Shown: positions 27,001-30,000 of the stretch, piece after piece
Layout: each line of letters starts with the position of its first letter
How positions within the stretch are numbered: position 1 is the first letter of the stretch
NCBI RefSeq assembly: GCF_056712565.1
Contig: NZ_CM160072.1
Direction: 5' to 3' (one strand)
DNA: 64,000 bases
Position numbers: made by a program

Positions 27001-30000
27001 CTCACGGTGGATATATATCACCCGCGGCATTTATTCCACTTGCTGAAAAATGCGGATTAATCGTTCCGCTTACGCAAAGCCTGATGAATCAGGTTGCCAG
27101 ACAGATGAACGCTATCGCGAGTAAACTGCCGGAAGGTTTTCATATTGGGATTAATTTTAGCGCCTCGCATATTATTTCGCCGACGTTTGTCGACGAGTGC
27201 TTAAATTACCGTGACAGTTTTACCCGCCGCGATTTAAACCTTGTTCTGGAAGTCACCGAGCGTGAGCCATTAAATGTTGATGAAAGTCTGGTTCAGCGGT
27301 TGAACATTCTGCATGAAAATGGTTTTGTCATCGCGCTGGATGATTTCGGTACTGGTTACTCAGGGCTTTCTTATCTGCATGACTTGCATATTGATTATAT
27401 CAAAATTGATCATAGTTTCGTTGGCCGCGTCAACGCAGACCCAGCATCAACCCGAATTCTGGATTGTGTATTGGATCTGGCGCGTAAACTTTCGATCAGT
27501 ATCGTCGCTGAAGATGTCGAAACGAAAGAACAATTTGACTATCTGAACCAAAATAATATCACATTTCAGCAGGGTTATTATTTCTATAAACCTGTTACAT
27601 ACATCGACCTGGTCAAGATTATCCTTTCTAAACCGAAGGTGAAGATTGTGGTTGAGTGAAAATTGATCAGCAAGGCCATGGTGCGGTGTAATTATAGACA
27701 GCTAATTAGCTCGTTGCCTCTTGTTACTATTGTTCATTCTTTTGTTTGCTATAATTGTGTGAAAGTTTTGACTGGATTGCCATTAGTAGCATGAACAATA
27801 GTAATAATCTGGATTATTTCACTCTCTATATCATCTTTTCCATTGCATTTATGCTGATCACTCTCCTGGTCATCCTTATTGCAAAACCCAGCACCGGGCT
27901 GGGAGAAGTGCTTGTGACGATAAATTTGCTTAATGCCCTGGTTTGGCTGGCGATCAATCTGGTTAATCGATTAAGGGAAAGACTCGTCAGCCACAGGGAT
28001 CAGCACTAATCTTTCAGTTTCTCACTGCCAGTATGCGGCTGAATGGGTTGCTGGCAGTGAACCCCTGGATCATTGAAGGAAAGGAATTATTGCACAAATA
28101 GTTGTCAACCCTGGTGTTATCACAGTTGTTTTATATATCAGTGAAATAATTTCCATGGCAACTGTTGATAATTTTGATGTCGAAGAGTTATTTGTTAAAC
28201 AAAATAGTTACCCCAAAGTGATCAATGTCATGAAAATAAGCTAAAAATGATAATGCTGGCTTATTTATCATTTAAATATTGTCGCTGTTTATCTATTTAA
28301 ATTTCTTGTGCTTTTGTTTTTATCTTTGCCTTCCGTTTTGGTAATCTGAACTCATAGGTTATTTGACCAGGAATGTTTGTTAATCCAATGAATGGATGGT
28401 TAATCTATGAAACTGAAAAAACTCCCCGGATTTAGTTTAGGACTTATTGCTCTGGCGGTGGGTAATGCATATGTAACGCAATTGTTGGATATTTATAGTA
28501 TAATTTCCTATATAACCGATGAAGAATCACCGATTGAAATCAAAAATAATACTTCTACAAGTAATGGGGAGTATCTAATCACTTAAGACGAAAGCCATGC
28601 TGTGAAAGTGGATGACGGTGTAACTGGATATATACATAATGCCAGTGTGATGACTAGTGGTGATGGATCTTATGGTATTTCTGTTGATAGCCAAAACAAA
28701 GTATTATATATAAGCGATAGCAATATTAAGACGCTCTGAAAGCGTATCTGACAAAGAAAATGGAGGGATAACAGCCAGCGCAGTAGTCAGTGAATTTGGT
28801 GGCACCATCGTTATGAATGGTGATAATTCAGTCGAGACGAGGGGGCATATTCAGCGGGACTTTTAAGTCAGATTAATGATTCTGGGACTGTGGAAAATAA
28901 CACCCGTCTTGAAACCACAGATAAAACGAACATTGTTACCTATGGGGAAAAATGCAGTAGGAGTTCTTGCATGTTCAAGTCCTGGAGAGTCTCGAACATG
29001 TGTCGATGCTGTAGATGATGAAGTTTGTGATTCTAACAGTTACGAAGTTATTAGCCGTGCTGATTTAAAAATGAATGGTGGTTCCATAACAACTAATGGT
29101 ATTAATAGCTATGGTGCTTATGCTAATGGGAAAAAAGCATATATTAATTTAGATTATGTGGTACTTGAAACTGTGGCTGATGGAAGTTATGCAGTTGCTA
29201 TTCGACAAGGTAACATTGATATAAAAAAGTTCTATTACAACAAATGGCACTAAAGCCCCCATTGCAAAAATATACAATGGTAGAGAGTTATTTTTTTCCA
29301 ATGTCACTTCAGAATCAACAGAAACGCCTACCCCCGTCCTGCGACCCGAAGCTGGCAGTTACGTCGCCAACCTGGCAGCCGCTAACACTCTTTTTGTTAT
29401 GCGTCTGAACGATCGTGCAGATGAAACGCGCTATATCGATCCTGTAACTGAACAGGAGCGTTCAAGCCGATTTTGGCTACGTCAAATTGGCGGGCATAAT
29501 GCCTGGCGTGACAGCAACGGACAGTTGAGAACGACCTCGGCACAGGCCATCTGGATGGGCGTCGATCATAATGTGCACACGGAAGCCAATGGCTCACGTA
29601 TTGAGAATGACGCAAATAACAATATCCAGACCCGACTTGGTTTCCACACCTTTATTCGTACTCAGGAGAAAAACAGCGGTCCGCACGGTGACGACTTTGA
29701 ACCTTTTGTTGAAATGAACGGGATCCATAACAGTAAAGATTTTGCTGTCTCAATAAACGGTGTGAAAGTTGAACAAGCCGGGGCGCGTAATCTGGGGGAA
29801 ATTAAACATGGCGTAAATGGCAATCTGAATCCTGCGGCCAGCGTCTGGGGTAATGTGGGCGTGCAGCTGGGTGATAATGGCTACAATGACAACGCAATGA
29901 TGGTGGGCCTGAAATATAAGTTCTGATCCCGCCATTAGCTAAAAAACCGCGTCGAATTCATCGACGCGGTAACATATGAAATATTATTTTTTGCCGATAG

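What the first reader, a model, noticed from the sequence alone, without database searches (positions are those of the whole stretch)
28022..28060. 10-bp-arm stem-loop after ymgF
tcactgccag ... ctggcagtga with a 19-nt loop and no T-run. It is not a canonical terminator and could be a structured RNA element or protein-binding site.
Basis: seen in the sequence. Interest (0 to 1): 0.2.

Follow-up and report, generated by a model that had tools for sequence, protein, structure and literature searches.

The report
Conserved hairpin ending the ymgF transcript
This is a real, evolutionarily protected RNA hairpin just after the small cell-division gene ymgF of E. coli, most likely an ordinary U-less stem-loop that caps and stabilises the 3' end of the mRNA, so it is an unannotated example of an already known kind of element.

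Summary
It starts 13 nt after the ymgF stop codon. A perfect 10-nt repeat alone is not remarkable in 64 kb, but the conservation pattern is. The element is single-copy and present in about 5,025 of 5,426 complete E. coli genomes. In three cryptic-clade Escherichia species both arms are unchanged (0/20 sites), while the loop (7/19), the spacer (6/12) and the downstream flank (28/40) have diverged. The only variable arm pair runs T·G (78% of copies, ancestral), C-G (this window, 9%) and T-A (12%), so it always pairs on the + strand RNA. The perfect arms are therefore lineage-specific. The "19-nt loop" probably folds into a short upper helix. It is not a canonical terminator, a REP element or an Rfam family. 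The best reading is a 3'-UTR hairpin that defines and protects the ymgF mRNA 3' end after termination or processing further downstream, the class described by Dar & Sorek (2018). I found no 3'-end data for ymgF, and there is no clear rut site. Low interest: a new member of a known kind.

The parts
27791..28009 (+). ymgF coding sequence (72 aa, cell-division-associated inner-membrane protein); the hairpin lies in its 3' UTR
   Evidence: RefSeq annotation of the identical type-strain sequence; the ORF appears.
28010..28021 (+). 12-nt spacer between the ymgF stop codon and the stem; not conserved
   Evidence: 6 of 12 sites are variable between K-12 and the cryptic-clade species.
28022..28031 (+). 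5' arm of the lower stem (TCACTGCCAG); position 28028 is C here and T in about 90% of E. coli and in all outgroups
   Evidence: There are 0/10 variable sites between K-12 and the clades.
28032..28050 (+). 19 nt between the arms. In the RNAalifold consensus this is a 4-nt 5' bulge (28032-28035), an upper helix (28036-28040 with 28046-28050, rich in G·U) and a 5-nt apical loop (28041-28045). The register of the upper pairing differs between single-sequence folds.
   Evidence: 7/19 sites are variable between species. 28048 is T>G in the T-A haplotype.
28051..28060 (+). 3' arm of the lower stem (CTGGCAGTGA); position 28054 is G here and A in the T-A haplotype, pairing with 28028
   Evidence: There are 0/10 variable sites between K-12 and the clades.
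28061..28406 (+). AT-rich (34% GC) spacer up to the ycgH autotransporter start. It is the inferred zone of actual termination or processing of ymgF transcripts, and it holds the ycgH promoter region.
   Evidence: Composition. An RpoD SELEX site flagged H-NS lies in the ymgF>ycgH spacer (PMC3946193). A sigma-S ChIP peak lies at 1219400-1219949 (PMC4447067). No terminator-like site was found.

Best explanation
The repeat encodes an RNA hairpin in the 3' UTR of the ymgF mRNA (+ strand). It has a 10-bp lower stem topped by a short, irregular upper helix, with a free energy of about -18 to -22 kcal/mol. It most likely defines the mature 3' end of the ymgF transcript and protects it from degradation.

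The proposed mechanism is as follows. RNA polymerase reads through into the AT-rich, H-NS-bound, untranslated spacer before ycgH. The transcript is ended there, by Rho or by endonucleolytic cleavage. 3'-to-5' exonucleases (PNPase, RNase II) then trim back until they are stopped by the hairpin.

Shown here: the hairpin exists; its arms are under purifying selection; its pairing is kept only on the + strand; it folds robustly in context; it lacks a U-tract in E. coli. Inferred: that an RNA 3' end lies at its base, that termination happens downstream, and that Rho and exonucleases are involved.
For: Position: the stem starts 13 nt after the ymgF stop, on the same strand.

Conservation: the element is single-copy and present in about 5,025 of 5,426 complete E. 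coli genomes. The arms are 0/20 variable between K-12 and E. whittamii, Escherichia sp. E1V33 and strain SCPM-O-B-8794. By comparison the loop is 7/19 variable, the spacer 6/12, the downstream 40 nt 28/40, and the last 30 nt of ymgF itself 8/30. Fisher p ranges from 0.003 to 9e-7. Coding divergence on that branch is about 17%.

Pair-preserving variation: arm pair 28028/28054 exists as T·G (3,892 records, also in the outgroups), T-A (620) and C-G (472). Both derived states are single steps that strengthen the RNA pair. No non-pairing combination is among the three haplotypes that make up about 99% of copies.

Strand: the T·G form folds at -19.1 kcal/mol on the + strand and -9.8 on the - strand. 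All six orthologs favour the + strand. The upper helix relies on G·U pairs that would be C·A on the other strand.

Robustness: lower-stem pair probabilities are 0.98-1.00 within 339 nt of context in all six orthologs.

Independence from ycgH: the hairpin is retained in E. whittamii, where ycgH is reduced to a C-terminal remnant.

Known mechanism: Dar & Sorek 2018 (PMC6061677) showed that steady-state 3' ends of Rho-dependent E. coli mRNAs sit just after stable stem-loops without U-tracts, generated by PNPase/RNase II trimming. The downstream spacer is reported as H-NS-associated.
Against: I found no experimental 3' end for ymgF. It is absent from the held supplements of Adams 2021, TERMITe, TRS and SMRT-Cappable-seq, and other supplements were not available.

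The downstream sequence shows no clear rut-like C>G bias. C/G is 0.57-1.10 in 78-nt windows, whereas Dar & Sorek report mild C>G enrichment.

Formal covariation is not significant: 164 of 500 column shuffles score as well, and there are only two mutational events in the lower stem.

The arms are conserved at the level of sequence, not just pairing. That equally fits a sequence-specific protein site.

E. albertii ymgF has no equivalent hairpin directly after its stop.
Confidence: 0.55

Rival explanations
1. The hairpin is itself a weak or factor-assisted transcription terminator, meaning an intrinsic terminator with a degenerate U-tract. It would stop some polymerases at its base and insulate ymgF from the ycgH promoter region.
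For: The hairpin sits at the position and has the stability typical of terminators. In two cryptic-clade orthologs it is followed by a U-rich tail: ATGTTTTATCC and ACGTTTTTTCA, with 5 T in the first 8 nt, against 1 in E. coli. This suggests a terminator that gained or lost its U-tract. Dar & Sorek discuss such transitions.
Against: In E. coli the tail is ACSCCTGGATCATTG, with a T-score of 0.08, and there is no upstream A-tract. The consensus scan finds nothing. Even in the clades the U-run starts 3 nt after the stem, and the T-scores are low (0.4-1.5). The direction of the U-tract change cannot be polarised, because the clades form one group at this locus and E. albertii lacks the region.
Confidence: 0.15
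2. The conserved arms are a DNA (or sequence-specific RNA) protein-binding site, for example two CTG-N-CAG mini-palindromes bound by a regulator of ycgH or ymgF. The hairpin potential would then be incidental to the dyad symmetry.
For: The arms are invariant in sequence rather than covarying. Each arm contains CTG-N-CAG, and the only variable arm positions (28028, 28054) are exactly the central N's. That is what an uncontacted centre would look like. The spacer length is fixed at 19. The site lies upstream of the ycgH promoter region, which binds RNAP, H-NS and sigma-S.
Against: The dyad is imperfect at the DNA level in 78% of genomes and in all outgroups, but it always pairs as + strand RNA. 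Half-sites of 10 bp separated by 19 bp are atypical for dimeric regulators (general knowledge). The element sits 13 nt after a stop codon and about 350 nt from the ycgH start. It persists where ycgH has decayed. The motif does not recur in a paired or regulon-like way in the window, and the mild 1-mismatch excess (15 against 6.2 expected) is what the frequent CTG and CAG codons would give.
Confidence: 0.12
3. The hairpin is a non-functional chance palindrome, or a relic of the DNA junction created when the ycgH segment was acquired, conserved only by linkage or low local mutation.
For: Ten-nt perfect repeats arise by chance in most shuffled 64-kb windows. Homology with E. albertii breaks down about 10 nt after the ymgF stop, just before the hairpin. 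Within E. coli the element is not obviously more conserved than its neighbours.
Against: There are 0/20 arm changes on a branch where the enclosed loop changed at 7/19 sites and the flanks at 50-70%. Identical arms around a diverged loop also argue against recent recombination. There are no target-site duplications, the element is single-copy, and at 39 nt it is too short for a MITE.
Confidence: 0.12

Closest known systems
Protective 3' stem-loops of Rho-dependent E. coli mRNAs (Dar & Sorek 2018, PMC6061677; hypothesis of Peters et al.)
   Same: A stable stem-loop lies directly downstream of a CDS, with energy in the terminator range. It lacks a U-rich tail and an upstream A-tract. It is not a REP element. 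It sits at the end of a poorly expressed gene, next to H-NS-bound DNA.
   Different: No mapped RNA 3' end, no bicyclomycin or exonuclease-mutant data, and no C>G enrichment downstream (C/G 0.57-1.10). Membership is therefore inferred, not shown.
Canonical intrinsic (Rho-independent) terminators
   Same: A hairpin of about -18 to -22 kcal/mol lies a few nt after a stop codon. Cryptic-clade orthologs carry a partial U-run after it.
   Different: In E. coli there is no U-tract (1 T in 8 nt) and no A-tract. The lower stem is separated from the apical loop by a bulge and a weak upper helix, instead of a compact 3-8 nt loop.
REP/BIME extragenic palindromes
   Same: An extragenic palindrome after a gene, capable of stalling exonucleases.
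   Different: It is single-copy per genome, has no sequence family and no Rfam match, and is specific to the ymgF locus of Escherichia.
ProQ/FinO-domain-bound mRNA 3'-end hairpins (recalled from the literature, not tested here)
   Same: A structured 3'-terminal hairpin of an mRNA that could be bound and shielded from RNase II.
   Different: I examined no CLIP or RIL-seq evidence for ymgF. ProQ sites usually include the terminator U-tail.

Membership tests
Canonical intrinsic terminator | Stable GC-containing stem-loop just downstream of the gene | tested here: met
   The 10-bp stem has 6 G-C pairs. The hairpin energy is -18.1 to -21.5 kcal/mol.
Canonical intrinsic terminator | U-tract (about 7-8 nt, U-rich) immediately after the stem | tested here: not met
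   The tail ACCCCTGGATCATTG has 1 T in the first 8 nt and a T-score of 0.08. The terminator scan gave 0 sites. There are partial U-runs only in two cryptic-clade orthologs.
Canonical intrinsic terminator | Compact apical loop (3-8 nt) | tested here: inconclusive
   There are 19 nt between the perfect arms. Predicted upper pairing leaves a 5-8 nt loop, but with a 4-nt bulge and a register that differs between orthologs.
Protective 3' stem-loop of Rho-dependent transcripts (Dar & Sorek 2018) | Energetically stable stem-loop not followed by a U-rich sequence, downstream of the CDS | tested here: met
   the class definition is.
Protective 3' stem-loop of Rho-dependent transcripts (Dar & Sorek 2018) | Steady-state RNA 3' end maps immediately downstream of the stem | not testable with these tools
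   No ymgF entry or coordinate 121925x/121926x appears in the held supplements. Other supplements are not held.
Protective 3' stem-loop of Rho-dependent transcripts (Dar & Sorek 2018) | Bicyclomycin-sensitive read-through and PNPase/RNase II-dependent trimming downstream | not testable with these tools
   This requires RNA-seq of treated or mutant strains.
Protective 3' stem-loop of Rho-dependent transcripts (Dar & Sorek 2018) | C-over-G enrichment (rut-like) downstream of the stem | tested here: not met
   C/G is 0.57-1.10 in 78-nt windows over 28040-28400. The region is AT-rich (26-35% GC) and T-rich.
REP/BIME or other dispersed palindromic repeat / MITE | Multiple copies per genome sharing a consensus | tested here: not met
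   Median 1 place per genome in 5,025 genomes. There is one match in the window.
Any Rfam 15 RNA family | Match to a curated covariance model | tested here: not met
   No hit overlaps 28022-28060, even at E<=10.
Structured RNA supported by covariation | Compensatory changes in excess of a shuffled control | tested here: inconclusive
   One lower-stem pair has three standard states (UG, CG, UA), and 97.8% of cells are paired. However, 164/500 shuffles score as well with 6 sequences.
Palindromic transcription-factor operator | DNA-level dyad symmetry with closely spaced half-sites in a promoter | tested here: inconclusive
   The dyad is imperfect in 78% of copies. The spacer is 19 bp, and the site is about 350 nt upstream of the ycgH start. 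The CTG-N-CAG sub-palindromes have their variable sites at the centres. There are no binding data.

The most novel reading that the evidence does not exclude
The arms are invariant in sequence, not merely in pairing, because the hairpin is recognised sequence-specifically. The binder could be an RNA-binding protein such as ProQ, or a DNA-binding regulator using the two CTG-N-CAG sub-palindromes. The hairpin would then act as a regulated insulator between ymgF and the H-NS-silenced ycgH autotransporter promoter, rather than as a passive exonuclease block.
Probability: 0.08. Interest if true: 0.35.

Novelty: new member of a known kind. Interest (0 to 1): 0.15.

Why it matters
The stakes are modest. 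The element gives the poorly studied ymgF gene a defined, testable 3' boundary at MG1655 1219214-1219252. It is a clean small example of selection maintaining a U-less 3' hairpin across Escherichia species while the loop, the flanks and even the neighbouring ycgH gene decay. The contrast between a U-poor tail in E. coli and a U-rich tail in cryptic clades could illustrate the proposed interconversion of intrinsic and Rho-dependent 3' ends. It does not open a new mechanism.

Tried and rejected
- **Dispersed repeat, REP or MITE:** rejected. The element is single-copy per genome, has no target-site duplication and is only 39 nt.
- **Known RNA family:** no Rfam hit, even at E<=10.
- **Canonical terminator:** the scan was negative, and the U-tract is absent in E. 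coli.
- **rut-site composition:** no C>G skew downstream.
- **Formal covariation test:** not significant with 6 sequences.
- **Polarising the U-tract change with a locus tree:** impossible. The three clade sequences form one group, and E. albertii lacks the region.
- **Published 3'-end maps:** nothing for ymgF in Adams 2021, TERMITe, TRS or SMRT-Cappable-seq. The supplements of Dar & Sorek 2018, the 3'-seq comparison preprint and the nanopore paper are not held.
- **Recurrence of the arm motif as a regulon signal:** CACTGNCAGT has 2 hits. The 1-mismatch arm pattern has 15 hits against 6.2 expected, scattered and unpaired, and is attributable to the common CTG and CAG codons.
- **Minus-strand RNA:** disfavoured by the A·C mismatch and by roughly half the folding energy.
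- **ProQ binding data:** no usable dataset was located.

Full report
**Observation.** The window is identical to the E. coli type strain ATCC 11775 over this region. ymgF lies at 27791-28009 on the + strand. The inverted repeat is exactly as reported: TCACTGCCAG at 28022-28031 and CTGGCAGTGA at 28051-28060. The arms are 100% complementary, with 19 nt between them and 12 nt separating the stop codon from the stem. The tail has no T-run, and the terminator scan finds nothing. No ORF of 30 aa or more covers the element, and no RefSeq feature lies under it.

**Chance.** A perfect 10-nt inverted repeat with a 3-30 nt loop is not rare. Block-shuffled windows give about 2 hits on average, and 75% have at least one. 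The real window has about 12 distinct ones, most of them obvious terminators. The repeat alone therefore carries little weight, and the comparative data decide the matter.

**Conservation within E. coli.**
- The 66-nt segment occurs once per genome in 5,025 of 5,426 complete genomes.
- Three haplotypes account for about 99% of copies. TCACTGTCAG...CTGGCAGTGA has a T·G at arm pair 7 (3,892 records, including K-12). TCACTGTCAG...CTGACAGTGA has T-A plus a loop T>G (620 records). This window's form has C-G (472 records).
- The perfect 10/10 palindrome is therefore a minority, derived state.

**Conservation between species.**
- YmgF is confined to Escherichia (consistent with PMC3509220).
- In E. 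whittamii, Escherichia sp. E1V33 and strain SCPM-O-B-8794, both arms are identical to the K-12 T·G form (0/20 variable sites).
- Over the same comparison the 19-nt interior changed at 7 sites, the 12-nt spacer at 6, the next 40 nt at 28, and the last 30 nt of ymgF at 8.
- Fisher tests of arms against loop give p=0.003, and against all non-coding neighbours 9e-7. Coding divergence on this branch is about 17%.
- Identical arms around a diverged loop argue against recent gene conversion.
- T·G is thus ancestral. Both derived alleles (T>C, G>A) are single steps that convert the wobble pair into a Watson-Crick pair.
- E. albertii has unrelated sequence and no hairpin at this position. It lacks ycgH and reaches the ymgD terminator about 170 nt downstream.
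- E. whittamii keeps the hairpin although ycgH is reduced to a C-terminal remnant. The element therefore goes with ymgF rather than with ycgH.

**Strand and structure.**
- The T·G pair is a U·G wobble on the + strand RNA but an A·C mismatch on the - strand.
- Folding energies are -17.6 to -22.5 kcal/mol on the + strand and -9.8 to -17.0 on the - strand for the six orthologs.
- RNAalifold extends the stem into a G·U-rich upper helix (28036-28040 with 28046-28050), with a 4-nt bulge and a 5-nt apical loop. Single-sequence folds use other registers, so only the lower stem is secure.
- Within 339 nt of context the lower stem has pair probabilities of 0.98-1.00 in all orthologs.
- Formal covariation is not significant, with 164 of 500 shuffles scoring as well. 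The argument therefore rests on differential conservation, wobble-compatible variation and strand asymmetry, not on compensatory changes.

**What it is not.**
- It is not a dispersed repeat (single copy).
- It is not an Rfam family.
- It is not a canonical intrinsic terminator in E. coli.

**Mechanism.**
- The anatomy matches the class defined by Dar & Sorek (2018, PMC6061677). In that class, stable stem-loops without U-tracts mark the steady-state 3' ends of Rho-terminated E. coli mRNAs. Termination occurs diffusely downstream, and PNPase or RNase II trim back to the hairpin.
- The downstream 350 nt are 34% GC and untranslated. They are reported to bind RNAP and H-NS (PMC3946193) and sigma-S RNAP (PMC4447067). 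From general knowledge, this is the kind of DNA where Rho termination is frequent.
- These steps are inferred. I found no 3'-end data for ymgF, and there is no C>G rut-like signal downstream.

**Rivals.**
- (a) A weak or factor-assisted terminator. Two clade orthologs have 5 T in the 8 nt after the stem, against 1 in E. coli. This fits the suggested evolutionary switching between terminator types, but the direction cannot be polarised.
- (b) A protein site. Each arm contains CTG-N-CAG, and the two variable positions are precisely the central N's, so the 'pair-preserving' variation could instead be unconstrained operator centres. The arms are conserved in sequence, not only in pairing. Arguing against this are the strand asymmetry, the 19-bp spacing, the location 13 nt after a stop codon, and the lack of motif recurrence.
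- (c) A chance or junction relic, which is disfavoured by the site-specific conservation.

**Verdict.** This is a real, selected, + strand RNA hairpin in the ymgF 3' UTR. It is most likely an ordinary 3'-end-defining and protective stem-loop, with about 0.55 confidence in that mechanism. It is an unannotated new member of a known kind and of low general interest.

Noticed in passing
window 27721-27740 / 27788-27807 (block ~27720-27758): A 20-nt inverted repeat (90% complementary) spans the ymgF start codon (27791). The RNA fold is -26.3 kcal/mol, z -3.6, with 0/200 shuffles as stable. An extended -10 (TGcTATAAT, 27747-27755) lies between the arms. A 39-bp block containing the left arm and the -10 is invariant across E. 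coli, three cryptic-clade species and even E. albertii. The clades carry an uncompensated T>G in the right arm, so this looks like promoter or operator conservation rather than RNA pairing. The left arm would be transcribed only in read-through from pdeG.
   Followed up: partly
window 23581-23618: An AT-rich perfect palindrome with 14-nt arms, ATACTTTGTACAAT-N10-ATTGTACAAAGTAT, lies about 120 nt beyond the bluF stop. From memory it resembles the TGTACA-N12-TGTACA operators of MlrA/BluR-type MerR regulators.
   Followed up: no
L004-L011 and L002 vs window 28407 onward (ycgH): All five sampled strains with the T-A hairpin haplotype have an intact YcgH/ECIAI39_1904-family autotransporter annotated. 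All sampled T·G or C-G strains have ycgH as a pseudogene or as fragments. This is probably lineage structure, since the samples are few and not independent.
   Followed up: no
window 26808-27659 (pdeG/ycgG): In this strain the EAL phosphodiesterase gene pdeG is annotated as an N-terminally truncated pseudogene. It is an intact 507-aa gene in K-12 and many other strains.
   Followed up: no
L012 (strain CT01) ~456-472, equivalent to window ~28066: An IS1A element is inserted about 5 nt after the hairpin, leaving the hairpin intact and replacing the downstream spacer.
   Followed up: no
L013 2340-2470 (E. whittamii); also L014, L015: In the cryptic-clade species ycgH is reduced to a short C-terminal beta-barrel remnant (...GFKYKF*) directly before the ymgD terminator. 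E. albertii has no trace of it.
   Followed up: partly
L003 483-635 (O25:H4), equivalent to window ~28092-28244: PGAP annotates a 50-aa 'hypothetical protein' (WP_001167734.1) in the AT-rich spacer just downstream of the hairpin in some B2 strains. No ORF of 30 aa or more is listed there in this window.
   Followed up: no
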